Virus record (IMG/VR): IMGVR_UViG_2547132269_000002
Coordinates: 1 to 11,368 of that record
Length of the DNA stretch: 11,368 nt
DNA from: a virus
Taxonomy: Duplodnaviria > Heunggongvirae > Uroviricota > Caudoviricetes
Direction: 5' to 3' (one strand)
Positions 1 through 11,368 of the stretch are shown piece by piece. Every line of letters begins with the position of its first letter. The first letter of the stretch is position 1. The position numbers and the translations under genes were made by a program. A model generated the notes under the pieces. The model was not told where the DNA came from. It saw only the letters and a program-made list of their open reading frames with translations, and searched no databases.

Positions 1-265
1 GCGATAATTTTACTCATCATCCTTCACATCAGGCCCTGTAGACAGAGTGGTGATTACTTCTGGAGTGGATTCAGATTAAACATCTCATTGCTAATGTTTG
101 AGGTTAAGCATCTGGCGCGCGGTAAGCGGTTGCGTTGAAATAAGAGCCAGTCCATTACAAATTTCATCAAGCGTTATTGGTAAGGGTGATAATTATGAGA
201 TACCTCTTCACTAAGAGTAATCTTAAGGGTAATGTGTAACCTCACTTTTTAATACGGAGGTTGTA

Positions 266-490
266 ATGTTAGAGAATTATTTCCCTTCAGGAATAGGTGC
301 TCAGCCTGTAACTCAAGCTCAAAAACAGAGGGTTATAGCTGTTCAAGCTGCCCTTGAATTAGTTAAGGCCTCACTTTCTTCTGCAGGTGGTCAGGCTACA
401 AGTGCAAAATTTGAACAGGAATTAAAAGCAGCTATTGGCTTAATTGAACCATTAGCCGATGCCATTCAGAAAGCAATCAGCAAAGAATAA
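266..490 (+). CDS. Small hypothetical protein (74 aa), AT-rich moron-like gene, predicted mostly helical, no signal peptide or TM segment
   Basis: ATG at 266 preceded by GGAGG at 256-260 (5-nt spacer); TAA stop at 488-490. Composition clearly more AT-rich than downstream phage genes. Followed ~105 nt downstream by an intrinsic terminator. Function not recognised. Confidence 0.6.
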   Translation: MLENYFPSGIGAQPVTQAQKQRVIAVQAALELVKASLSSAGGQATSAKFEQELKAAIGLIEPLADAIQKAISKE

Positions 491-595
491 ATAAACCACC
501 TGCATTTTGTTTTATTTCCCAACTAACGGGTGTAATAATCTTAATGTTTCCCGTGGATAGATAAGACAATAAGTATTCACCTTCAAGATATAAAC

Positions 596-622
596 GGGCC
601 TCGCTAATGCGAGGCTTTTTTA
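596..622 (+). terminator. Rho-independent terminator (stem gcctcgc / gcgaggc, loop taat, then TTTTTT)
   Basis: Perfect 7-bp inverted repeat at 598-604 and 609-615, immediately followed by a 6-T run at 616-621. Orientation fits termination of + strand transcription from the small gene at 266..490. Confidence 0.6.
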
Positions 623-656
623 CGCATTGTAAGCGTGCACCAAAGAGGGGATATAA

Positions 657-1007
657 ATGCCACCACGAACCCCAAAAGCCTGCCGTTTTCGCGGTTGCCG
701 CAATACCACTACAGATACGTCAGGCTATTGCGAAAGCCACAAAAGCGAGGGCTGGAAGCAATACAAGCCAGGACAATCCCGTCATCAGCGCGGTTATGGT
801 TCGAAGTGGGACAGTATCCGCGCGGGTGTCCTGAAGCGTGACAAAGGCCTGTGTCAGTTATGTCTGCGTGCTGGTGTGGTGCGTGAGGCGAAAACCGTTG
901 ACCACATCATCCCTAAAGCGCATGGCGGCACTGATGCCGACTGTAATCTGCAGAGTCTGTGCTGGCCGTGTCATAAGGCGAAGACGGCCCGTGAACGACT
1001 TAAGTGA
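657..1007 (+). CDS. HNH homing-type endonuclease, phage packaging-associated (116 aa)
   Basis: ATG at 657 with AGAGGGG upstream. Cys pairs CRFRGC and CQLC...CWPC (zinc-finger-like). HNH core DHIIPKAHGG...NLQSLCWPCHKAKT with His83 codon at 903-905. Sits directly upstream of the small and large terminase genes, as in HK97-like cos phages. Confidence 0.9.
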   Translation: MPPRTPKACRFRGCRNTTTDTSGYCESHKSEGWKQYKPGQSRHQRGYGSKWDSIRAGVLKRDKGLCQLCLRAGVVREAKTVDHIIPKAHGGTDADCNLQSLCWPCHKAKTARERLK

Positions 1008-1033
1008 TAATAATTCTCAACTGTCTGAGGGGA

Positions 1034-1093
1034 GGGGCGGGTCAAATCTCTGTGACCTGACGTCTTCCGGACTGCCCGCCCCATCGTTTTTTT
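1034..1093 (+). other. GC-rich inverted repeat (ggggcggg ... cccgcccc) with internal palindromes, followed by TTTTTTT; candidate terminator or cos/packaging-recognition region
   Basis: Arms at 1034-1041 and 1075-1082 are exact reverse complements separated by a 33-nt loop containing the palindromes gacgtc (1059-1064) and tccgga (1066-1071). A 7-T run at 1087-1093 lies 4 nt after the stem. Located in the HNH to TerS intergenic gap. Confidence 0.35.
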
Positions 1094-1132
1094 ATACCCG
1101 CGAAAAATGAAATTTAACCAGGAGTGCCGCAT

Positions 1133-1627
1133 ATGGCTGGAACGGCGGGGCGTTCCGGGCGTCGCCCCAAGCCAACGGCGCGCAAGGCGCTGGCCGGAAA
1201 CCCCGGAAAGCGAGCCCTGAACAAAGATGAACCCGTTTTTACGCCCATCAAAGGTGTTGAGCCACCGGAGTGGTTCGCTGAAGAAGAGCTCCCTCTCGCC
1301 ACGATCATGTGGCAACTGACAACCAAAGAACTCTGCGGTCAGGGCCTGCTGTGCGTGACTGACCTCGCAGTGCTTGAGCGGTGGTGCGTAGCCTATGAGT
1401 TCTGGCGACGTGCTGTGAAAAATATTGCCAGACAGGGCAACACCATCACCGGTGCAATGGGCGGCATGGTCAAAAATCCGGAGCTGACCGCCAAAAAAGA
1501 ACAGGAGTCCGAGATGAGCAGTACGGGGGCAATGCTCGGACTCGACCCCAGCAGCCGCCAGCGTCTGATTGGCCTGGCGGGGCAGAAGAAAGCCACTAAC
1601 CCGTTTCTGAAAATTATCGAATCATGA
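1133..1627 (+). CDS. Terminase small subunit, P27 family (about 164 aa from ATG 1133)
   Basis: ATG at 1133 preceded by AGGAG at 1120-1124; the in-frame GTG at 1124 used by the ORF track has no spacing for an RBS. Basic N-terminus GRSGRRPKP, then [15 protein letters not shown] and PPEW motifs typical of P27-type small terminases. Stop TGA at 1625-1627 overlaps the ATG of the next gene. Confidence 0.85.
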
Positions 1628-3357
1628 GCCGGAAATCTTACCCCAACGTAAATGCTGCCAATCAGTATGCCCGGGATGTCGTGCGCGGAAAGATTGTGGC
1701 CTGCCAGTTTGTGATTCAGGCCTGCCAGCGCCATCTTGATGACCTGATGGCGGAAAAAAGTAAGTCGTTTCGTTACCGCTTCGACAAGGACCTGGCTGAA
1801 CGGGCCGCCAAATTTATTCAGCTGTTGCCGCACACCAAGGGTGAGTGGGCATTCAAGAGGATGCCCATCACGCTGGAGCCGTGGCTGCTCTTTGTGATCT
1901 GCTGCGCGTTTGGCTGGGTCAATAAAGGCTCCCGGCTGCGCCGCTTCCGGGAGGTGTATACCGAAATCCCCCGTAAGAACGGCAAATCGGCAATCTCTGC
2001 CGGTGTCGCCCTGTATTGTTTTGCCTGTGATAACGAGTTCGGCGCGGAAGTGTATTCCGGTGCCACGACGGAGAAACAGGCATGGGAAGTCTTTCGTCCG
2101 GCAAGACTGATGTGTAAACGCACACCCATGCTGACGGAAGCGTTCGGGATTGAGGTTAACGCCTCAAACATGAATCGTCCGGAGGATGGCGCGCGGTTTG
2201 AACCGCTGATCGGTAACCCCGGTGATGGTTCATCACCCCACTGTGCGGTGGTGGATGAATATCACGAGCACGCCACCGATGCGCTTTACACCACGATGCT
2301 TACCGGGATGGGGGCGCGACGTCAGCCACTGATGTGGGCCATTACTACTGCCGGGTACAACATTGAGGGGCCGTGCTACGACAAGCGACGGGAAGTTATC
2401 GAGATGCTCAACGGGTCGGTACCCAACGATGAACTGTTCGGGATCATCTATACCGTTGACGAAGGCGATGACTGGACCGACCCGCAGGTGCTGGAAAAAG
2501 CTAACCCGAATATTGGCGTGTCGGTTTATCGCGAATTTTTGTTAAGTCAGCAGCAGCGTGCGAAAAATAACGCCCGTCTGGCAAACGTCTTTAAAACAAA
2601 ACACCTCAATATCTGGGTGTCGGCGCGTTCGGCGTATTTCAACCTGGTGAGCTGGCAGAGCTGCGAGGATAAATCACTGACCCTTGAGCAGTTCGAGGGG
2701 CAGCTGTGCATTCTGGCCTTTGACCTGGCGCGTAAGCTGGATATGAACAGCATGGCGCGACTTTATACCCGCGAGATTGACGGTAAAACGCATTACTACA
2801 GTGTGGCCCCGCGTTTCTGGGTACCGTATGACACGGTGTACAGCGTCGAGAAAAATGAAGATCGACGGACAGCCGAACGCTTTCAGAAATGGGTGGAAAT
2901 GGGCGTTCTGACCGTTACCGATGGTGCGGAGGTGGATTATCGCTACATCCTCGAGGAGGCCAAAGCGGCGAACAAAATCAGCCCGGTCAGTGAGTCACCC
3001 ATCGACCCCTTCGGGGCGACCGGGTTGTCACATGACCTTGCTGATGAAGACCTGAACCCCATCACTATCATTCAGAACTACACCAACATGTCCGACCCGA
3101 TGAAAGAGCTGGAAGCGGCAATTGAATCGGGGCGCTTTCATCATGATGGCAATTCCATCATGACCTGGTGTATCGGCAACGTGGTCGGCAAAACCATTCC
3201 GGGTAACGATGATGTGGTGAAGCCCGTCAAAGAGCAGGCGGAAAACAAAATCGATGGTGCAGTTGCGCTGATTATGGCGGTTGGCAGAGCCATGCTGTAC
3301 GAGAAAGAAGACACGCTGTCTGACCACATTGAGTCCTATGGGATCCGCTCGCTTTAA
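1624..3357 (+). CDS. Terminase large subunit (577 aa), ATPase plus nuclease
   Basis: Walker A-like P-loop IPRKNGKS at nt 1969-1989. Walker B-like VVDEYHE at nt 2248-2268. Length and position immediately after TerS, with ATGA overlap. Intact ORF. Confidence 0.95.
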
Positions 3358-3368
3358 CTGAGGTAATT

Positions 3369-3551
3369 ATGATCATGCTGATTCTCGCGCCTTTGGTGGG
3401 CGTGCTGGGGGCGCTTTTGCTGGCGTATGGTGCCTGGCTGATTTATCCCCCGGCGGGGTTTGTTGTTGCTGGGGCGTTGTGCCTGTTCTGGTCGTGGCTG
3501 GTGGCGCGATATCTCGACCGTACACAGTCGTCTGTCGGCGGAGGTAAATAG
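3369..3551 (+). CDS. Small hydrophobic protein (60 aa) with two predicted transmembrane helices, function unknown
   Basis: ATG at 3369 with GAGG 7 nt upstream. Two hydrophobic stretches ([26 protein letters not shown] and [16 protein letters not shown]) separated by PPAG. TAG stop at 3549-3551 overlaps the GTG start of the next ORF. Confidence 0.6.
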
Positions 3552-4909
3552 TGTTCTTTTCGGGATTATTTCAACGAAAAAGTGACGCACCGGTGACCAC
3601 GCCAGCAGAGCTGGCGGATGCTATCGGGTTGTCCTACGACACCTATACCGGAAAGCAGATCAGCAGCCAGCGGGCCATGCGACTGACGGCGGTTTTTTCC
3701 TGTGTCAGGGTGCTGGCGGAGTCGGTCGGGATGTTGCCCTGCAACCTGTATCACCTGAACGGCAGCCTGAAGCAGAGAGCCACTGGCGAACGTCTGCATA
3801 AGCTGATCTCCACGCATCCCAATGGCTATATGACGCCGCAGGAGTTCTGGGAGCTGGTGGTCACCTGTCTGTGCCTGCGGGGAAACTTTTACGCCTACAT
3901 TGAGCTGAAACGTCCGGCAGGTGGTGCGCAAAATAAACTGGCCACCGAGCATAAAGAAGCGTTTGTGGGCTTCCTGCGTAAAGGCCGTGAAGATGGTCTG
4001 CGCGATCTGGAGCGCAAGGCATTACAGGTGGGCACCGATGAAGACGGTGGCTATGCCGTGCCGGAAGCGCTGGATCGCAACATTCTGACCTTGCTGAAAG
4101 ATGAAGTGGTGATGCGCCAGGAAGCCGCGGTGATCACCGTTGGCGGTTCCGACTACAAAAAACTGGTGAATCTGGGCGGCACGGCTTCCGGATGGGGTGG
4201 CGAGACTGACGCGCGCTCCCAGACTGCCACCTCCAGACTGGGGCTGATTGAACCTTTCATGGGGGAAATCTACGGTAACCCGCAGGCCACCCAGAAAATG
4301 CTGGATGATGCCTTTTTCAACGTGGAGGCCTGGATCAACAGCGAGCTGGCAACCGAATTTGCCGAACAGGAAGAAATTGCCTTTACCACCGGCGATGGTA
4401 CCAAGAAGCCGAAAGGGTTCCTGGCGTATGAATCCACTGATGAAACCGATAAGGTCCGGGCGTTCGGCAAACTTCAGCATATTGTATCCGGCGACGCGAC
4501 TGCGGTGACCGCAGACGCCATTATCAAACTGATTTACACGCTGCGAAAGGCACACCGCACCGGCGCGAAGTTCATGATGAACAACAACAGCCTGTTTGCC
4601 ATCCGTTTGCTGAAAGACAGCGAGGGTAACTATCTGTGGCGTCCGGGGCTGGAACTGGGGCAGCCGTCCTCTCTGGCGGGTTACGGTATCGCTGAAAACG
4701 AACAGATGCCGGATATCGCCGCTGATGCGAAAGCCATTGCATTTGGTAACTTCAAACGGGGTTACACCATCGTTGACCGTATCGGCACCCGCATTCTGCG
4801 TGACCCGTACACCAATAAACCGTTTGTCGGTTTTTATACAACCAAGCGCACCGGCGGGATGCTGGTCGATTCGCAGGCCATCAAACTGCTGAAGATTGCT
4901 GCGGCGTAA
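3551..4909 (+). CDS. Chimeric ORF: portal protein N-terminal fragment (~125 aa) fused in frame to an HK97-fold major capsid protein (~325 aa); probable deletion product
   Basis: GTG start at 3551 with GGAGG at 3540-3544. Residues ~40-120 carry the portal N-terminal signature (AMRLTAVFSCVRVLAESVGMLP ... HPNGYMTPQEFWEL ... LRGNFYAYIE). From about nt 3910-3950 the sequence switches to capsid-type motifs (EAFVGFLRKG, GGYAVPE, TGDGTKKPKGFL, LRDPYTNKPFVGFYTTKRTGG, AIKLLKIAAA). No prohead protease or scaffold gene between them. Confidence 0.8.
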   Translation: MFFSGLFQRKSDAPVTTPAELADAIGLSYDTYTGKQISSQRAMRLTAVFSCVRVLAESVGMLPCNLYHLNGSLKQRATGERLHKLISTHPNGYMTPQEFWELVVTCLCLRGNFYAYIELKRPAGGAQNKLATEHKEAFVGFLRKGREDGLRDLERKALQVGTDEDGGYAVPEALDRNILTLLKDEVVMRQEAAVITVGGSDYKKLVNLGGTASGWGGETDARSQTATSRLGLIEPFMGEIYGNPQATQKMLDDAFFNVEAWINSELATEFAEQEEIAFTTGDGTKKPKGFLAYESTDETDKVRAFGKLQHIVSGDATAVTADAIIKLIYTLRKAHRTGAKFMMNNNSLFAIRLLKDSEGNYLWRPGLELGQPSSLAGYGIAENEQMPDIAADAKAIAFGNFKRGYTIVDRIGTRILRDPYTNKPFVGFYTTKRTGGMLVDSQAIKLLKIAAA

Positions 4910-4916
4910 TCATTCA

Positions 4917-4936
4917 GGGGCGCGGAACCGCGCCCC
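4917..4936 (+). terminator. GC-rich hairpin just after the capsid stop (ggggcgcgg aa ccgcgcccc), weak T-tract; possible partial terminator or mRNA-stabilising stem-loop
   Basis: 9-bp perfect inverted repeat at 4917-4925 and 4928-4936 with a 2-nt loop, 8 nt after the TAA at 4907-4909. The downstream run ctgttctg is not a canonical U-tract. Confidence 0.4.
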
Positions 4937-4958
4937 CTGTTCTGACGGGTGAAGAATC

Positions 4959-5159
4959 ATGATCCTGAAACAAGATCTGAAATGGTCACCGGACGGTATG
5001 CGTGTTGAGGTCATTCGGGCCGGTGAGTATGACGACGGGGCGCTTCCTGCCCGGGTGCAGGAGATTGCACTTCAGGCCGGGTTAGCAGAGCGCGGAACCA
5101 GTGCAAAAAGCAGTAAAGCGGCAAAAGAGAAAAAAGCCACGACCAGTAAAGAGGGCTGA
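4959..5159 (+). CDS. Hypothetical small protein (66 aa) with Lys/Ser-rich C-terminal tail
   Basis: ATG at 4959, weak RBS. Sits between the capsid and head-tail connector genes. C-terminus SAKSSKAAKEKKATTSKEG. Stop 2 nt before the next gene start. No family recognised. Confidence 0.5.
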   Translation: MILKQDLKWSPDGMRVEVIRAGEYDDGALPARVQEIALQAGLAERGTSAKSSKAAKEKKATTSKEG

Positions 5160-5161
5160 GT

Positions 5162-5485
5162 ATGCTTCTGACAATGGAAGAGATTAAAGCCCAACTCCGG
5201 CTGGATGAGGATTTCGATGCTGATGACCGCCATCTGCAACTGCTGGCCTGTGCGGCGCAAAAGCGGACGGAAACGTATCTGAACCGGAAGCTCTATGCAC
5301 CGGATGAATCCATTCCGGACAGCGATCCGGACGGGCTGCACCTGCCGGATGATATTCGTCTGGGGATGCTGATGCTTATCAGCCATTTTTACGAAAACCG
5401 CTCGTCGGTTACGGAAGTGGAAAAACTCGACATGCCGCAGAGTTTTGGCTGGCTTGTCGGCCCGTACAGGTACTTTCCGCAATGA
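5162..5485 (+). CDS. Head-tail connector protein, gp6-like (107 aa)
   Basis: ATG at 5162 with AAGAGGG upstream. N-terminal pattern LTMEEIKAQLRLDEDFDADD...LQLLACAA resembles gp6-like connector/DNA-packaging proteins. Follows the capsid gene. ATGA overlap with the next gene. Confidence 0.75.
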   Translation: MLLTMEEIKAQLRLDEDFDADDRHLQLLACAAQKRTETYLNRKLYAPDESIPDSDPDGLHLPDDIRLGMLMLISHFYENRSSVTEVEKLDMPQSFGWLVGPYRYFPQ

Positions 5486-5892
5486 AAATTCGTCAGGCGC
5501 AGATCAGCGCAACCTACATTCTGCCGGACCCCGGTGAACTGAATAAACGCGTCCTGATCCGCCTGCGGGTGGATATGCCCGCGGATAACTTTGGCGTGGA
5601 GCCTCAATACCCGGTTACGTTCTGGACATGGGCGAAGGTTATCCAGACCAGTGCCACCACCTGGCAGGAAACCGCGCAGACCGGGGACGCCATCACCCAT
5701 TACATCACCATTCGTTACCGCCGGGGGATCACCGCTGATTATGAGGTGGTCTGTGATGACAGTGTGTACCGGGTGAAACGTCAGCGCGATCTGAACGGGG
5801 CGCGGCGCTTTCTGCTGCTGGAGTGTACGGAGCTGGGCGAATTTACGCAGAGTCACGGAGGCAGCAATGGCGACTCCCTTTTTTCACGTTGA
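5482..5892 (+). CDS. Head-tail joining (head closure / adaptor) protein (136 aa)
   Basis: Pattern RVLIRLRV ... FWTWAKVIQ ... AQTGDAITHYITIRYRRGI ... YRV ... LLECTE fits the phage head-tail joining family. Position after the gp6-like gene. Confidence 0.75.
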   Translation: MKIRQAQISATYILPDPGELNKRVLIRLRVDMPADNFGVEPQYPVTFWTWAKVIQTSATTWQETAQTGDAITHYITIRYRRGITADYEVVCDDSVYRVKRQRDLNGARRFLLLECTELGEFTQSHGGSNGDSLFSR

Positions 5893-6373
5893 TGTTCAGC
5901 AGCCCGCGGAGATGCGCTTTAACCGCGCCCGTGTCCGGCGGGCGTTTGTCACGATTGGTCAGCGTCATATGCGTGATGCCCGTCGGCTGGTGATGCGCCG
6001 TGCGCGGTCGGCACCGGGTGAAAACCCCGGTTATCAGACCGGACGCTTGGCTCGTTCGATTGGTTACATGGTGCCGGGAGCCAGTAAAAAGCGAGTCGGT
6101 TTTATGACACGCATTGCCCCTAACCAGCGCAACGGGAGGGGGAACCGGATGATCTCTGGTGACTTCTATCCGGCGTTTCTGTTTTTTGGTGTCCGGGGAG
6201 GAGCAAAACGTCGTCACAGTCATCATCGTGGTGCATCCGGTGGCAGCGGCTGGCGACTGGCTCCACGTAATAACTTCATGGTGGAAACGCTTGAAAAGAA
6301 CCGCAGCTGGACACGCTATTTTCTGGCGCGGGAATTACGTAAATCACTGAAGCCGGAGCGACGACGCAGATGA
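5867..6373 (+). CDS. Neck / tail-completion protein, HK97 gp10-like by pattern (168 aa), Arg-rich C-terminus
   Basis: ATG at 5867 with GGAGG at 5857-5861; overlaps the previous gene by 26 nt. Assignment rests on gene order and loose motif resemblance (GYQTGRLARSI, FYPAFLFFG). Confidence 0.5.
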   Translation: MATPFFHVDVQQPAEMRFNRARVRRAFVTIGQRHMRDARRLVMRRARSAPGENPGYQTGRLARSIGYMVPGASKKRVGFMTRIAPNQRNGRGNRMISGDFYPAFLFFGVRGGAKRRHSHHRGASGGSGWRLAPRNNFMVETLEKNRSWTRYFLARELRKSLKPERRRR

Positions 6374-6930
6374 AACTGACGCCTGTTATTGCTGCGCTGC
6401 GTGCCCGCTGCCCGTATTTTGAAAACCGGGTGGCAGGTGCGGCACAGTTCAAAAATCTGCCGGAGGTCGGAAAGCTGAAACTCCCGGCGGCGTATGTGGT
6501 ACCGGGTGATGACTCTCCTGGAGAAAACAAAAGCCAGACCGACTACTGGCAGGAGCTGAAAGAGGGCTTCTCCGTGGTTGTCATACTGAGTAACGGGCGT
6601 GATGAGCGCGGTCAGTTTGCCTCGTATGATGTGGTGGACGATGTCCGGCAGATGCTCTTTAAGGCCCTGCTGAGCTGGAACCCGGAAGCGTGCGGTAACC
6701 CGATTACCTATGACGGCGGCACGCTGCTGGATCTGAATCGTCATGAGCTGATTTATCAGTTCGATTTTTCGGTCATCAGCGAGCTGACCGAAGACGATAC
6801 CCGCCAGCAGGATGATCTGAACAGTCTGGATGAACTGCAAACGCTGGCGATTGATGTTGATTATCTCGAGCCCGGTAACGGGCCTGACGGCGATATCGAA
6901 CATCACACCGAAATAACCCTTCCTTCCTGA
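6370..6930 (+). CDS. Mu gp36/gp37-like tail-associated protein (186 aa) with acidic C-terminal region
   Basis: ATGA overlap with the upstream gene. Lies just upstream of the gp38-like gene and the tail sheath start, as in Mu-like tail modules. Family assignment is by position and loose resemblance. Confidence 0.5.
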   Translation: MKLTPVIAALRARCPYFENRVAGAAQFKNLPEVGKLKLPAAYVVPGDDSPGENKSQTDYWQELKEGFSVVVILSNGRDERGQFASYDVVDDVRQMLFKALLSWNPEACGNPITYDGGTLLDLNRHELIYQFDFSVISELTEDDTRQQDDLNSLDELQTLAIDVDYLEPGNGPDGDIEHHTEITLPS

Positions 6931-6938
6931 GGATCCTC

Positions 6939-7109
6939 ATGTTTGTCAAACCTGTTAAAGGGCGGTCAGTGCCTGACCCTGCCCGCGGCGACCTTTTGCC
7001 CGCCGAAGGGCGAAATGTTGACGAGAACAACTACTGGCTGCGCCGTGAAGCAGCGGGTGATATCCGGCGCGTGAATAAAAAGGTGAACACCGATGACGAT
7101 AAGCTTTAA
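6939..7109 (+). CDS. Small Mu gp38-like protein (56 aa, DUF2635-like)
   Basis: Not in the ORF track (below length cutoff); found by reading the sequence. ATG at 6939 with GAGGA at 6929-6933; TAA stop at 7107-7109. Protein MFVKPVKGRSVPDPARGDLLPAEGRNVDENNYWLRREAAGDIRRVNKKVNTDDDKL. Lies directly upstream of the sheath start codon. Confidence 0.55.
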   Translation: MFVKPVKGRSVPDPARGDLLPAEGRNVDENNYWLRREAAGDIRRVNKKVNTDDDKL

Positions 7110-7224
7110 CACCATTCCGTCGAATACGCTGGTTCCGTTGTTTTATGCGGAAATGGATAACCAGGCGGCGAATAAACACCCGCGCAGAGCACTGGCTGGC
7201 CTTCCGTCACGCATCCGGCACTGA
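7093..7224 (+). pseudogene. Tail sheath gene, N-terminal fragment only (43 codons, ~27 sheath-like then out-of-context tail)
   Basis: ATG at 7093 with AAGGTG upstream. Translation MTISFNTIPSNTLVPLFYAEMDN matches the conserved N-terminus of Mu-type sheath proteins, but a TGA stop follows at 7222-7224. The ~450-aa sheath body is absent. Confidence 0.6.
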
Positions 7225-7574
7225 ACAATGCACCGGCGGTGAAAAGCACGGTTGACCTGCCAACGTGGGAAGAACTGACTGACATTCGCGACACACTGAA
7301 TACGGCAATTGATAAGGAGTTGTCCCGTACAACCAGTGATGCGCTGTTTCTGGCGCTGCGCCGGGTGAAAGCAGATCTGAATGCGGATATCAACACGCGC
7401 CTTGAACAGTCTGCACGGATCATTCAGCGCACGCCGGATGAGGTTTTACCCGCGCTGGTGCTGGCGGCGACCTGGTTTGATAACGCGGCGCGTGACGGGG
7501 ACATTATCCGGCGTAATGCCATTACGCATCCCGGCTTTGTGCCGGTGATCCCTCTGAAGGTGCCAGTGCAATGA
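7176..7574 (+). pseudogene. 3' remnant of the gene upstream of the baseplate hub (probably Mu gp43/N-like DNA circularisation protein); no ATG start or RBS
   Basis: Frame opens after the TAA at 7173-7175 and runs to the TGA at 7572-7574, which overlaps the ATG of the hub gene (caATGAac). First possible start is a GTG at 7239 with no RBS. 133 open codons against an expected ~400-500 aa for this gene. Confidence 0.5.
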
Positions 7575-8650
7575 ACGATAACGTCACGCTACGGGTAAAT
7601 GGCCGGGAGTGGAATGGCTGGACATCGGTGCGCATCGGTGCCGGTGTTGAACGACTGGCGCGGGATTTCAGTGTGGAGATCACTCGCCAGTGGCCGGGAG
7701 ATGAGGGTATCACCACGCTTCAGCCGCGCATTAAAAACGGTTCAAAAGTGGAAGTGCTGATTGGTGATGAGCTGGTGATCACCGGCTGGGTGGAGGCGAC
7801 TCCCGTTCGTTACGATGCCCGTTCGGTCAGCACCGGTATTGCCGGACGTAGTCTGACGGCTGACCTGATTGACTGTGCAGCCGAACCGACACAGTTTAAC
7901 GGACGCTCGCTGGTGCAGATTGCGCAGGCGCTTGCTGCGCCTTTCGGCATTGAGGTGGTGAACAGCGGTGCGCCGTCGGGTGTTATTCCTGATGTTCAGC
8001 CTGATCACGGTGAAACGGTGATTGAGGTAATCAACAAAATACTCGGTCAGCAGCAGGCGCTGGCTTACGACGACCCGTACGGCAGGCTGGTGATTGGCGG
8101 TATTGGCTCAACGCGGGCACATACCGCGCTGGTACTTGGGGAAAACATCCTTTCCTGTGATACGGAGAAGAGTATCCGGGAGCGGTTTTCTGTTTACCAG
8201 GTGGCGGGGCAGCGTGCCGGAAACGACGATGATTTCGGTGAGGCCACCACCACCGCGCTGCGGGCCCGCACAGAGGACGCATTTATTGCCCGTTACCGTC
8301 CGATGTATATCAGGCAGACAGGGCAGCCCACGGGGGCAGGCTGTATTGCGCGTGCTGACTTTGAAGCCCGACAACGGGCGGCGCGGACGGATGAAACCAC
8401 CTATGTGGTGCAGGGCTGGCGACAGGGTAACGGTACGCTGTGGCAGCCCAACCAGCGGGTGATTGTCTTCGATCCGGTCTGTGGTTTCGACAATACCGAA
8501 CTGCTTGTCTCGGAAGTCACGTTTACTCAGGACCAGAACGGCACCCTGACGGAAATCCGTGTCGGCCCGCCTGATGCTTATCTGCCTGAACCCGAAGCCC
8601 CCGGCGCGCGGGAAAAGAAAAAAGCCAGAGTACAGGAGGACCCGTTCTGA
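7571..8650 (+). CDS. Baseplate hub protein, Mu gpP (gp44)-like (359 aa)
   Basis: ATG at 7571 overlapping the upstream stop. Size and position match; N-terminal pattern LRVNGREWNGWTSVRIGAGVERLARDFSVEIT. Followed by the gp45-like and gp46-like genes in canonical order. Confidence 0.8.
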   Translation: MNDNVTLRVNGREWNGWTSVRIGAGVERLARDFSVEITRQWPGDEGITTLQPRIKNGSKVEVLIGDELVITGWVEATPVRYDARSVSTGIAGRSLTADLIDCAAEPTQFNGRSLVQIAQALAAPFGIEVVNSGAPSGVIPDVQPDHGETVIEVINKILGQQQALAYDDPYGRLVIGGIGSTRAHTALVLGENILSCDTEKSIRERFSVYQVAGQRAGNDDDFGEATTTALRARTEDAFIARYRPMYIRQTGQPTGAGCIARADFEARQRAARTDETTYVVQGWRQGNGTLWQPNQRVIVFDPVCGFDNTELLVSEVTFTQDQNGTLTEIRVGPPDAYLPEPEAPGAREKKKARVQEDPF

Positions 8651-9198: not shown

Positions 9199-9623
9199 TG
9201 GAAGTGTGGCTGACGGTGAACGGTAAATGCACCTGCGCCAGCGCACCGCTGGATCCGCTGACCCGCGCCGTGGTGATTTCTCTGTTTACCTGGCGGCGGG
9301 CGGAGCCTGATGACAATGCCGACGTCCCGATGGGATGGTGGGGGGATACCTGGCCTGCGGTACAGAATGACCGTTACGGTTCCCGACTGTGGCTGCTTCA
9401 ACGCAGCAAACTGACCAATCAACTGGTGCAGACGGTAAGGGGGTATATCCGCGAATGCCTGCAATGGATGATTGATGACGGCGTGGTGTCCCGTATTGAT
9501 CTGGATATCCGCCGCACCGGGATTAATGAACTGGGTAACAGTATCACTCTCTGGCGTCGTGACGGACCGGTAATGATTTCTTTTGATGATCTGTGGAGTG
9601 CGATAACGCATGGCGGACAGTGA
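9195..9623 (+). CDS. Mu gp46-like baseplate protein (142 aa)
   Basis: ATGA overlap with the gp45-like gene. Size and position between the spike and J-like genes. Confidence 0.75.
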
Positions 9624-11061
9624 ATTTCAGCGCCCGACGCTGGCAGAAAATATCAGTATGCTCCGTAACGATTTATTCGCCAGGCTGGACGTCAGCGACA
9701 CGCTCCGGCGCATGGATGAAGACGTGCGGGCAAAGGTGTATGCGGCGGCGCTGCATACGGTTTACGGGTACATCGATTATCTGGCAATGAACATGCTGCC
9801 TGACCTGTGCGATGAGTCCTGGCTGGCGCGACATGCTGCGATGAAACGGTGTCCGCGCAAGGGGGCCACGGCTGCCAGCGGGTATATGCGCTGGGAAGGT
9901 GTCAGCGATGGCCTGAAGGTGACCGCCGGGAGTGTTATTCAGCGCGATGACCTGGTTCAGTACACGGCAACTGCCGATGCAACCAGCTCCGGTGGTGTCC
10001 TGCGCGTGCCGATCGCCTGCTCAAGTGCAGGCGCGGTCGGTAACGCTGACGACGGTACGTCATTAATCCTGGTCACGCCGGTTAATGGTCTGCCGTCTTC
10101 CGGCGTGGCAGATACCCTGACAGGTGGATTTGATACTGAAGAGCTGGAAACGTGGCGCGCCCGCGTCATTGAGCGGTATTACTGGACGCCTCAGGGCGGA
10201 GCTGACGGGGACTATGTCGTCTGGGCTAAAGAAGTGCCCGGCATTACCCGCGCATGGACATACCGTCACTGGATGGGAACGGGAACTGTCGGTGTGATGA
10301 TTGCCAGCAGTGACCTGATTAATCCCATTCCGGAAGAATCAACGGAAACGGCAGCAAGACAACATATCGGGCCACTGGCCCCGGTGGCAGGCTCTGATTT
10401 GTATGTGTTCAGGCCGGTGGCGCATAAAGTGGATTTTCATATCCGCGTGACGCCGGACACACCGGAAATACGGGCTGCCATTACCGCGGAGTTGCGTTCG
10501 TTCCTGCTGCGTGATGGTTATCCGCAGGGAGAACTGAAGGTATCGCGTATCAGTGAGGCGATTTCCGGTGCGGCACCGTCATTAACCCGTGTTCATCAGC
10601 GTGCGGATGCCCTGATGCGGGAGCTGGATCCGCGCACCACCACTGAACTGATAAACCGCTGGGAGCGTCTGTGCGGTCTGCCGGATGAATGTATTCCGGC
10701 GGGAACGCAGACCCTTCGCCAGCGTCAGCAACGGCTGGATGCGAAGGTTAACCTGGCGGGCGGCATCAACGAGGATTTTTATCTTGCACAGCTTGCTGCC
10801 CTGGGCAGACCAGATGCCACCATCACGCGATACGACAAAAGCACGTTCACCTGCTCATCGGCCTGTACTGACGCGGTGAATGCGCCAGAATGGCGGTATT
10901 GCTGGCAGGTCAACATGCCAACCACCACCAACACCACCTGGATGACATGTGGCGATCCCTGTGATTCCGCACTGCGTATCTGGGGTGACACCGTTGTCGA
11001 GTGTGTGCTTAACAAACTCTGCCCGTCGCATACCTACGTAATTTTTAAATATCCGGAGTAA
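9610..11061 (+). CDS. Baseplate J-like protein (Mu gp47-like, ~320 aa) continuous with a gp48 / P2 gpI-like tail protein domain (~160 aa) in one 483-aa ORF
   Basis: ATG at 9610; single uninterrupted frame to TAA at 11059-11061. The N-terminal ~320 aa look J-like. From about nt 10560-10620 ([24 protein letters not shown] ...) the sequence resembles the N-terminal region of gp48/DUF2313-type proteins, which are normally a separate downstream gene. Confidence 0.75.
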
Positions 11062-11064
11062 TCC

Positions 11065-11368
11065 ATGCATCGTATAGACACGAAAACCGCGCAGAAGGAT
11101 AAGTTCGGCGCGGGTAAGAACGGTTTTACCCGTGGTAACCCCCAGACCGGCACACCTGCCACCGATCTGGATGATGACTACTTTGACATGTTGCAGGAGG
11201 AGCTTTGCAGCGTGGTGGAGGCATCCGGTGCCAGTCTTGAGAAGACGCGGCACGACCAGCTGCTTACCGCGCTTCGTGCGCTGCTGTTAAGCCGCAAGAA
11301 TCCGTTTGGCGATATCAAATCGGATGGCACCGTGAAAACGGCTCTCGAAAACCTTGGTTTGGGAGAAG
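11065..11368 (+). CDS. Tail fiber protein, conserved N-terminal (baseplate-attachment) domain; 3' end lies beyond the window
   Basis: Not in the ORF track (open at window end). ATG at 11065 with GGAG at 11055-11058. Translation [67 protein letters not shown]..., an N-terminus I recognise from tail fibers of enterobacterial Mu/P2-like tail modules. Confidence 0.75.

What the first reader, a model, noticed from the sequence alone, without database searches (positions are those of the whole stretch)
3551..4909. In-frame portal-capsid chimera with the prohead protease/scaffold missing
The first ~125 residues carry the portal N-terminal signature (AVFSCVRVLAESVGMLP, HPNGYMTPQEFWEL, GNFYAYIE). Around nt 3910-3950 the same frame switches to major capsid motifs (EAFVGFLRKG, GGYAVPE, KKPKGFL, LRDPYTNKPFVGFYTTKRTGG) and runs to a typical capsid C-terminus. 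In HK97-type heads portal, protease (or scaffold) and capsid are separate consecutive genes, so roughly 1.5-2 kb appears to have been deleted. The result keeps the reading frame, a GGAGG-GTG start and translational coupling to the upstream gene, so a fusion protein is probably still made. It could be a dead remnant or an expressed capsid-derived protein with a new N-terminus.
Basis: partly seen in the sequence, partly recalled or inferred. Interest (0 to 1): 0.65.

Follow-up and report, generated by a model that had tools for sequence, protein, structure and literature searches.

The report
Deletion-made portal–capsid chimera, dead prophage
The ORF really is an in-frame fusion of a phage portal gene's start to most of a capsid gene, but it is the scar of a 1,731-bp deletion in an already crippled Escherichia albertii prophage, which is ordinary prophage decay.

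Summary
ORF 3551-4909 (452 aa) consists of portal residues 1-116, one hybrid Ile codon, and major capsid residues 67-401. The junction lies at nt 3899|3900.

Compared with intact relatives, exactly 1,731 bp (577 codons) are missing. The lost stretch covers portal residues 117-413, the whole HK97-type prohead protease, and the first 66 residues of the capsid's N-terminal region. There is no microhomology at the junction. The GGAGG RBS, the GTG start and the TAGTG overlap with ymfR are the portal gene's own signals.

The window is an E. albertii contig holding an SfI/SfII/SfIV-type (e14-like) prophage remnant. E. albertii 2013C-4143 is 99.8% identical. It carries the window's two other deletions (tail sheath to DNA-circularization gene; baseplate J-YmfQ fusion) but still has separate portal, protease and capsid genes. 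The portal-capsid deletion was therefore the latest hit on a prophage that already could not build tails.

The chimera occurs only in a small E. albertii clade, as two alleles. It is absent from 5,426 complete E. coli genomes and from all phage records. Each allele has one substitution since the deletion, both nonsynonymous, at residues conserved in 98/98 and 96/98 full-length capsids.

The most likely reading is a non-functional remnant. Expression was not tested. Interest is low.

The parts
3369..3551 (+). ymfR (60-aa small membrane protein). It lies upstream of the portal gene, and its TAG stop overlaps the GTG start of the chimera.
   Evidence: phrog_502 membrane protein; same gene and spacing as in intact prophages and in K-12 e14
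3540..3544 (+). GGAGG ribosome-binding site, 6 nt before the GTG. This is the portal gene's native signal.
3551..4909 (+). Chimeric ORF, 452 aa (NCBI WP_000466245.1, annotated 'phage major capsid protein [Escherichia albertii]')
3551..3899 (+). Portal-derived segment: portal codons 1-116 plus the first base of codon 117. It is 100% identical to residues 1-116 of E. coli K-12 e14 BeeE.
3899..3900 (+). Deletion junction D1, with 1,731 bp missing and no microhomology. The hybrid codon A|TT encodes Ile117.
3900..4909 (+). Capsid-derived segment: capsid codons 67-401 plus the stop. It holds the complete PF05065 HK97-fold domain and lacks the first 66 residues of the N-terminal (delta/scaffolding-type) region.
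4179..4197 (+). Conserved GGTASGWVGETD motif. It carries V216G in this window (nt 4197), G214R in the second chimera allele (nt 4190), and the equivalent of G210D in the undeleted sister genome (nt 4179).
7174..7175 (+). Deletion junction D2, with 5,084 bp missing. It removes most of the tail sheath gene, the tube, tail assembly protein and tape measure genes, and about the first 70% of the DNA-circularization gene. It is out of frame and has no microhomology.
7239..7574 (+). C-terminal fragment (111 aa) of the DNA-circularization / baseplate hub gene left by D2
10557..10572 (+). Deletion junction D3, with 182 bp missing between 16-nt imperfect direct repeats. It fuses baseplate J to YmfQ in frame.
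9610..11061 (+). Second chimeric ORF (483 aa): baseplate J/gp47 fused to YmfQ/Mu gp48
657..3357 (+). Intact HNH endonuclease (657-1007), small terminase (1133-1627) and large terminase (1624-3357) of the same late operon

Best explanation
The ORF is a deletion scar in a decaying prophage. An SfI/SfII/SfIV-type (e14-like) temperate myovirus, with an HK97-type head module and a Mu-type tail module, was resident in an E. albertii lineage. It first lost 5.1 kb of tail genes and 182 bp at the baseplate J/ymfQ boundary. In one sublineage, a homology-independent (illegitimate) deletion then removed 1,731 bp between portal codon 117 and capsid codon 66. Because 1,731 is a multiple of three and both genes share a reading frame, the portal's start signals now lead into a 452-aa portal(1-116)-Ile-capsid(67-401) reading frame. 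That outcome has a one-in-three chance for any deletion. If the protein is translated at all, it has only about a quarter of the portal (Pfam model positions 2-75 of 321). It lacks the first 66 residues of the capsid's N-terminal region and has no cognate protease or portal. I infer that it cannot build proheads and has no selected function. The frame is still open simply because too little time has passed. Shown here: the architecture, the breakpoints, the order of deletions and the phyletic restriction. Inferred: non-function and failure to assemble.
For: Two separate protein families share one frame, and the portal model is truncated at position 75 of 321. Collinear alignment with intact E. 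coli prophage CE0021a (96.8-98.5% identity) shows portal (413 aa), HK97 prohead protease (216 aa) and capsid (401 aa) as separate genes, with exactly 1,731 bp absent from the window. The phages SfII, SfI, SfIV, SfV and vB_EcoM-720R4 match at 96.6-97.2%, each with those genes separate (PMC3851460). E. albertii 2013C-4143 (CP030787.2) is 99.8% identical, with 19 mismatches in 10,028 bp. It shares deletions D2 and D3 but keeps portal, protease and capsid intact, so D1 came last, in a prophage that already lacked its tail genes. In that sister genome the prophage's left arm is cut by an IS3-family element, with no repressor or cro gene called in the 10 kb examined upstream, and IS1 lies to the right. 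None of 5,426 complete E. coli genomes has the junction; the single '>=80% coverage' hit is a permuted 3.9-kb contig. Among 5.8 billion protein clusters only one cluster, of two E. albertii sequences, has this architecture at full length, whereas intact 401-402-aa capsid clusters have up to about 3,000 members. The two substitutions in the ORF since the deletion are both nonsynonymous. G214R hits a residue invariant in 98/98 full-length capsids, and V216G hits one that is V or I in 96/98. Within the remnant clade the count is 15 nonsynonymous to 11 synonymous changes (pairwise omega 0.36-0.64), against omega 0.12 between the remnant and an intact prophage (Fisher p = 0.006). HK97 capsid protein aggregates without its N-terminal scaffolding domain, whose coiled-coil part contacts the portal wing (PMC10275583). 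There are precedents in the same prophage family. K-12 e14 has ymfR-beeE(portal fragment)-jayE and a 'chimeric replication protein/phage terminase YmfN'. An independent 321-aa portal-capsid fusion sits in an E. coli e14-type remnant.
Against: The ORF is intact, and it has a good RBS and translational coupling. The upstream terminase genes and the downstream head-completion genes are also intact, so translation is possible if the late operon is transcribed. No expression data were available. The substitution counts are small, and recent polymorphism inflates dN/dS even in functional genes. The boundary of the capsid's delta-type domain in this phage is inferred from HK97 and from the start of the Pfam model, not measured. 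The three nearby nonsynonymous hits in one motif (chance about 0.02) could instead reflect a mutational hot spot or selection.
Confidence: 0.9

Rival explanations
1. Exapted interference protein. The chimera is expressed from the remnant late operon. It then acts as a dominant-negative capsid subunit or portal decoy that poisons prohead assembly of superinfecting SfI/SfII/SfIV-type phages, loosely like the capsid homologue Ccm of SaPIbov5.
For: The ORF is open, with the native RBS, start codon and coupling. It retains the complete HK97-fold domain, which could co-assemble with the 95-98% identical capsids of incoming relatives. Ccm shows that a capsid homologue with a different N-terminal delta domain can redirect a helper phage's assembly (PMC8569155). 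Three independent amino-acid changes cluster in one capsid motif.
Against: The chimera is confined to a few E. albertii isolates. The changes hit residues that are invariant in functional capsids, and one of the three lies in the undeleted sister, so they are not specific to the chimera. No dedicated promoter-like site lies upstream; counts are no higher than in shuffled sequence. The deletion has a random-looking blunt junction. Similar singleton fusions of this capsid to the large terminase, the protease or a patatin gene occur sporadically, as expected from random decay.
Confidence: 0.05
2. Assembly or sequencing artefact that joins the portal and capsid genes.
For: All contigs that carry the chimera are short (11-12 kb) draft contigs.
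Against: The identical junction appears in independent assemblies: NCBI GCA_027566395.1 and GCA_027566435.1, and Logan ERR200287 (this contig recorded in 4 samples) and SRR3574322. It occurs as two alleles that differ at 13-14 sites elsewhere. The junction lies in unique sequence, with no repeat that could mislead an assembler.
Confidence: 0.01
3. A genuine, conserved capsid architecture in which a portal-like N-terminal domain replaces the delta domain in a functional phage.
For: None beyond the open reading frame.
Against: No phage record and no E. coli genome has this architecture. All eight related loci examined have separate 413-, 216- and 401-aa genes. A 99.8% identical sister genome has the undeleted state. 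The surrounding prophage lacks sheath, tube and tape measure genes.
Confidence: 0.01

Closest known systems
Cryptic prophage e14 of E. coli K-12 (ymfR-beeE-jayE; chimeric YmfN)
   Same: It belongs to the same prophage family. BeeE residues 1-116 are 100% identical to the chimera's first 116 residues, and ymfR and the start signals are the same. In e14, too, an internal deletion starting in the portal gene joins it to a downstream structural gene (baseplate J), and another deletion made the annotated 'chimeric replication protein/phage terminase YmfN'.
   Different: The e14 deletion is 12.7 kb, ends in baseplate J, is out of frame and uses 4 nt of microhomology. The window's deletion is 1.7 kb, ends in the capsid gene, is in frame and has a blunt junction. 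The left breakpoint is 57-60 bp further upstream. The host is E. albertii, and the integration site was not seen.
Serotype-converting Shigella flexneri phages SfI, SfII and SfIV (also SfV, and E. coli phage vB_EcoM-720R4)
   Same: They show 96.6-97.2% nucleotide identity over the whole window. The gene order is the same: HNH, TerS, TerL, YmfR, portal, protease, capsid, connectors, then a Mu-type tail and baseplate (PMC3851460).
   Different: The phages are complete. The window lacks 1.7 kb, 5.1 kb and 0.18 kb of structural genes, and the portal, protease and capsid genes are collapsed into one ORF.
Independent 321-aa portal-capsid fusion in an E. coli e14-type remnant at icd (P0042)
   Same: It has the same two parent genes, is also in frame, and has the same start.
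   Different: The breakpoints differ (portal about residue 136 to capsid about residue 216; 2,124 bp), so half of the HK97-fold domain is gone as well. It shows that such fusions arise repeatedly and at different positions.
SaPIbov5 Ccm, a capsid homologue that redirects helper-phage capsid assembly
   Same: It is an HK97-fold capsid homologue with a non-canonical N-terminal region, carried by a non-phage element (PMC8569155).
   Different: Ccm is a diverged (24% identical), dedicated satellite gene with a demonstrated function and its own cleavable delta domain. The chimera is 98-99% identical to a phage capsid, is a recent deletion product, and has no demonstrated activity.

Membership tests
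HK97-family phage portal protein (Pfam PF04860) | A full-length portal domain, so that a dodecameric channel with wing, stem, clip and crown can form | tested here: not met
   Only HMM positions 2-75 of 321 are present. Intact relatives are 413 aa and align to the HK97 portal 8cez over residues 27-385. The chimera keeps residues 1-116 only.
HK97-fold major capsid protein with N-terminal delta (scaffolding) domain (Pfam PF05065) | A complete HK97-fold capsid domain | tested here: met
   PF05065 positions 1-280/280, E 1.1e-77. It aligns to the RcGTA capsid 6tb9 over chimera residues 131-451.
HK97-fold major capsid protein with N-terminal delta (scaffolding) domain (Pfam PF05065) | An intact N-terminal scaffolding region, together with neighbouring prohead protease and portal genes | tested here: not met
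   Capsid residues 1-66 and the whole 216-aa Peptidase_S78 gene are deleted, and the portal is truncated. HK97 capsid protein without its scaffolding domain aggregates (PMC10275583).
SfI/SfII/SfIV-type (e14-like) temperate myovirus prophage | Nucleotide identity and synteny of the packaging, head, tail and baseplate modules | tested here: met
   96.6-97.2% identity to SfII, SfI and SfIV over 93-97% of the window; collinear with E. coli prophage CE0021a.
SfI/SfII/SfIV-type (e14-like) temperate myovirus prophage | A complete set of virion genes, i.e. a viable phage | tested here: not met
   There are three deletions. Protease, sheath, tube, tail assembly protein and tape measure genes are missing. 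Portal, capsid, DNA-circularization, J and YmfQ genes are truncated or fused.
Deletion-derived chimeric ORF in a cryptic prophage (as e14 YmfN and BeeE/JayE) | Both halves are collinear with separate adjacent genes in intact relatives, and a near-identical genome shows the undeleted state | tested here: met
   E. albertii 2013C-4143 is 99.8% identical and has separate portal, protease and capsid genes. The junction maps to L008 2559|4291.
Deletion-derived chimeric ORF in a cryptic prophage (as e14 YmfN and BeeE/JayE) | Narrow phyletic distribution and relaxed constraint | tested here: met
   There is one protein cluster of two E. albertii sequences, and none of 5,426 E. coli genomes has the junction. 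In the ORF there are 2 nonsynonymous and 0 synonymous changes since the deletion, at conserved residues. Clade-wide the count is 15 N to 11 S, against omega 0.12 between phages. The counts are small, so the constraint half of this feature is only suggestive.
Capsid-homologue assembly-interference proteins (SaPIbov5 Ccm type) | Carried by a phage satellite and shown to be incorporated into, and to redirect, helper capsids | not testable with these tools
   The context is a degraded prophage, not a satellite. The activity would need experiments.

The most novel reading that the evidence does not exclude
The chimera is transcribed from the remnant's late operon. It then acts as a poison subunit: an HK97-fold capsid domain that lacks the coiled-coil part of its scaffolding region and carries a portal wing fragment. 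It would co-assemble with, and derail, proheads of superinfecting SfI/SfII/SfIV-type phages, giving the E. albertii host abortive-assembly immunity.
Probability: 0.04. Interest if true: 0.55.

Novelty: already known. Interest (0 to 1): 0.1.

Why it matters
It matters little as biology. It is a cleanly dated example of stepwise prophage decay, in which a near-identical sister genome preserves the state before the deletion. Practically, it flags a database mis-annotation: WP_000466245.1 is named 'phage major capsid protein' but is a portal-capsid deletion chimera. It also shows that an intact reading frame with good translation signals is not evidence of function in a young prophage remnant. Only about 3% of substitutions in this ORF would create a stop codon, and each lineage has had one substitution since the deletion.

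Tried and rejected
Structure prediction: AlphaFold2 on the chimera with a 24-sequence alignment gave mean pLDDT 31 and pTM 0.20. The model is unusable, because the alignment was too shallow (all capsids at least 85% identical, and only three sequences covered the portal part). No fold search was run on it.

Promoter and terminator scan of 1-5300: promoter-like sites were no more frequent than in shuffled sequence, and none lies just upstream of the ORF. This says nothing about late-operon transcription.

The single E. coli record that 'covers' the whole query (H1) turned out to be a circularly permuted, frameshifted 3.9-kb contig with the capsid gene before the portal gene. It is not the junction.

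Microhomology or repeats at the D1 endpoints: none beyond 6-mers expected by chance.

Exact residue boundaries of the portal domains (wing, stem, clip, crown) were sought in the HK97 portal paper but are not given in the text. 'Part of the wing only' therefore remains an inference from the general portal domain order.

I considered whether two in-frame deletions out of three signal selection. The chance of at least 2 of 3 being in frame is about 0.26 (hand calculation), so this is not informative.

Full report
**1. What is there**

The window has one long run of + strand phage late genes:
- HNH endonuclease, 657-1007
- small terminase, 1133-1627
- large terminase, 1624-3357
- the 60-aa membrane protein YmfR, 3369-3551
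- the ORF in question, 3551-4909
- head-tail connector and head-closure genes, a tail terminator and DUF2635
- Mu-type baseplate genes, out to 11061

Pfam puts two unrelated families in the single frame of ORF 3551-4909. Phage_portal covers aa 47-120 but only model positions 2-75 of 321 (E 2.2e-19). A complete Phage_capsid domain, 1-280/280, covers aa 166-449 (E 1.1e-77). PHROGs gives the same split: portal for aa 1-118 and major head protein for aa 127-452. So does a sequence search of the PDB: a portal protein (9lbn, 'portal protein gp1') for aa 24-115, and the RcGTA capsid 6tb9 for aa 131-451.

**2. Where the parts come from, and the exact scar**

The window is collinear with an intact prophage of E. 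coli CE0021a. There, YmfR, portal (413 aa), HK97-family prohead protease (216 aa) and major capsid protein (401 aa) are consecutive separate genes.

Window 651-3899 aligns at 96.8% and window 3900-7174 at 98.5%. Between them, 1,731 bp of the intact prophage are absent. The breakpoint is ...TACGCCTACA|TTGAGCTGAAA..., and the two parental sequences share no base at the junction.

The deletion runs from the second base of portal codon 117 through the first base of capsid codon 66. This creates a hybrid ATT (Ile) codon. The product is portal 1-116, Ile, capsid 67-401, which is 452 aa.

Since 1,731 = 3 x 577 and both genes are in the same frame, the frame is kept.

**3. Identity of the element**

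The window is identical to Logan contig ERR200287_311 and to NCBI contig JAQAMS010000051. The protein is WP_000466245.1, 'phage major capsid protein [Escherichia albertii]'.

The nearest phages are Escherichia phage vB_EcoM-720R4 and the Shigella flexneri serotype-converting phages SfII, SfI and SfIV, at 96.6-97.2% identity over 93-100% of the window. SfV matches with less coverage. [quoted passage not shown]

The intact portal is a close relative of the HK97 portal (8cez/8fql, E 4e-51). The intact capsid is related to the RcGTA capsid (6tb9, E 1e-73).

**4. The surroundings show a prophage already in ruins**

The window carries two more deletions relative to the intact prophage.
- D2, at 7174|7175, removes 5,084 bp: most of the tail sheath gene, the tube, tail assembly protein and tape measure genes, and most of the DNA-circularization gene. 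It is out of frame and has a blunt junction.
- D3, at 10557-10572, removes 182 bp between 16-nt imperfect direct repeats. It fuses baseplate J to YmfQ (Mu gp48) in frame, giving the 483-aa ORF 9610-11061.

The decisive relative is the complete chromosome of E. albertii 2013C-4143 (CP030787.2; strain identity from PMC10673567). It is 99.8% identical to the window, with 19 mismatches in 10,028 bp. It has the same D2 and D3, but still has separate 413-aa portal, 216-aa protease and 401-aa capsid genes.

The portal-capsid deletion is therefore the most recent of the three. It happened in a prophage that could no longer make tails. In that sister genome the prophage's left arm is cut by an IS3-family element, with no repressor or cro gene called in the 10 kb examined upstream. 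IS1 and other transposases lie to the right.

**5. Distribution**

None of 5,426 complete E. coli genomes contains the junction. Some 1,387 of them have the two halves, typically as two separate places. The one apparent full-length hit is a permuted, frameshifted 3.9-kb contig.

In a search of 5.8 billion protein clusters, only one cluster has this architecture at full length. It holds two E. albertii sequences, each seen on a handful of 11-12 kb contigs. Clusters of normal 401-402-aa capsids have up to about 3,000 members.

The two alleles share the same junction and differ at 13-14 sites over 11.4 kb. This points to a single event inherited within a small clade, and it rules out an assembly artefact.

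The same search turned up other one-off fusions of this capsid gene:
- to the large terminase (P0024, P0035, P0037)
- to the protease (P0021, P0036, P0039)
- to a patatin gene (P0022)
- an independent 321-aa portal-capsid fusion in an E. coli e14-type remnant at icd (P0042)

This is the pattern expected from random deletional decay. Only in-frame outcomes become visible as fusion proteins.

**6. Is there any sign of constraint on the chimera?**

I polarised substitutions with the CE0021a prophage as outgroup. The ORF has changed once in each allele since the deletion. Both changes are nonsynonymous: V216G in the window and G214R in the other allele. G214 is invariant in 98/98 full-length capsids of at least 85% identity, and position 216 is V or I in 96/98.

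Across the whole remnant clade there are 15 nonsynonymous and 11 synonymous changes, with pairwise omega 0.36-0.64. Between the remnant and the intact E. coli prophage the counts are 42.5 and 105.5, omega 0.12 (Fisher p = 0.006).

The numbers are small, and young polymorphism inflates omega. The direction nonetheless fits relaxed constraint.

An open frame is uninformative here. Only 3.4% of possible substitutions in the ORF create a stop, and each lineage has had one substitution.

**7. Likely consequence for the protein (inference)**

In HK97 the N-terminal 103-residue scaffolding domain is required. Without it the capsid protein aggregates. Its coiled-coil part is what contacts the portal wing, while residues 76-103 line the capsomer (PMC10275583).

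The chimera has lost the first 66 residues of the equivalent region and keeps roughly 48 residues ahead of the Pfam capsid domain. In their place it carries a fragment of the portal that cannot form the stem, clip or crown.

There is no cognate protease or portal, and no sheath, tube or tape measure. Assembly of anything phage-like from this locus is excluded by gene content. Failure of the chimera itself to fold or assemble is inferred, not shown. An AlphaFold2 attempt was uninformative (mean pLDDT 31).

**8. Comparison with what is known**

This is the same kind of object as the textbook cryptic prophage e14 of E. coli K-12, and it belongs to the same phage family. In e14, ymfR is followed by beeE, a portal fragment whose first 116 residues are identical to the chimera's. 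That fragment is joined by a 12.7-kb deletion to the baseplate pseudogene jayE. YmfN is annotated as a chimeric replication protein/terminase.

The only functional analogy worth naming is the satellite capsid homologue Ccm (PMC8569155). Nothing here meets its defining features.

**9. Verdict**

The thing itself is an ordinary, recent, lineage-restricted deletion scar in a defective prophage. Whether it is translated remains untested. A defensive 'poison subunit' role is not excluded, but nothing supports it (probability about 0.04).

Noticed in passing
window 9610-11061 (junction 10557-10572): This is a second in-frame chimera: baseplate J/gp47 fused to YmfQ/Mu gp48 by a 182-bp deletion between 16-nt imperfect direct repeats. 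The same 483-aa architecture is annotated in many Shigella flexneri and some E. coli records. It is therefore either older and spread with the prophage, or recurrent through slippage at the repeat.
   Followed up: partly
window 7093-7574 (junction 7174|7175): A 5,084-bp out-of-frame deletion removes the sheath, tube, tail assembly protein and tape measure genes and most of the DNA-circularization gene. It leaves a 43-aa sheath stub and a 111-aa C-terminal fragment. E. albertii 2013C-4143 shares this deletion.
   Followed up: yes
window 4179-4197: Three independent nonsynonymous substitutions lie within 7 codons of the conserved GGTASGWVGETD capsid motif. They occur in three closely related lineages: the equivalent of G210D in 2013C-4143, G214R in the second chimera allele, and V216G here. 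Simulated chance of such clustering among 25 substitutions in 10 kb is about 0.02. The cause could be a mutational hot spot, relaxed constraint or selection; this is unresolved.
   Followed up: partly
L021 (E. coli K-12 e14) 11136-11139; L018 about 8412-8415; intact prophage L003 22255-22259: K-12 e14 (portal to baseplate J, 12.7 kb) and the P0042-type e14 remnant (portal to capsid, 2,124 bp) have left breakpoints within the same 4 nt of the portal gene (...GGCTGTGTGGTA|). Their right ends differ, and neither can be derived from the other by a simple deletion. The window's left breakpoint is 57-60 bp upstream. This could be a deletion hot spot or a shared history with later recombination.
   Followed up: partly
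proteins P0021, P0022, P0024, P0035, P0036, P0037, P0039: There are other singleton fusions of the same capsid gene: to the large terminase, to the prohead protease, and to a patatin-like phospholipase (Escherichia sp. TW09308). Their contexts were not examined.
   Followed up: no
window 1-650 (ORF 266-490): This low-GC (0.40-0.42) stretch between the lysis genes and the HNH gene does not align to the CE0021a prophage. Its 74-aa ORF has no Pfam hit but is very widespread (indexed in 3,188 blocks of the collection), always between the Rz-like lysis gene and the HNH endonuclease. Its function is unknown.
   Followed up: no
L014 6354-8081 (E. albertii 2013C-4143, upstream of the region that corresponds to the window): Three reverse-strand genes without Pfam hits (204, 114 and 249 aa) sit between a short Q-like antiterminator gene and the holin gene. 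Related prophages have nothing or a single small gene at that position. This may be moron or defence cargo.
   Followed up: no
window 3551-4909: NCBI names this protein (WP_000466245.1 and the second allele) 'phage major capsid protein' without flagging the portal-derived N-terminus or the deletion. This is an annotation error that would propagate.
   Followed up: yes
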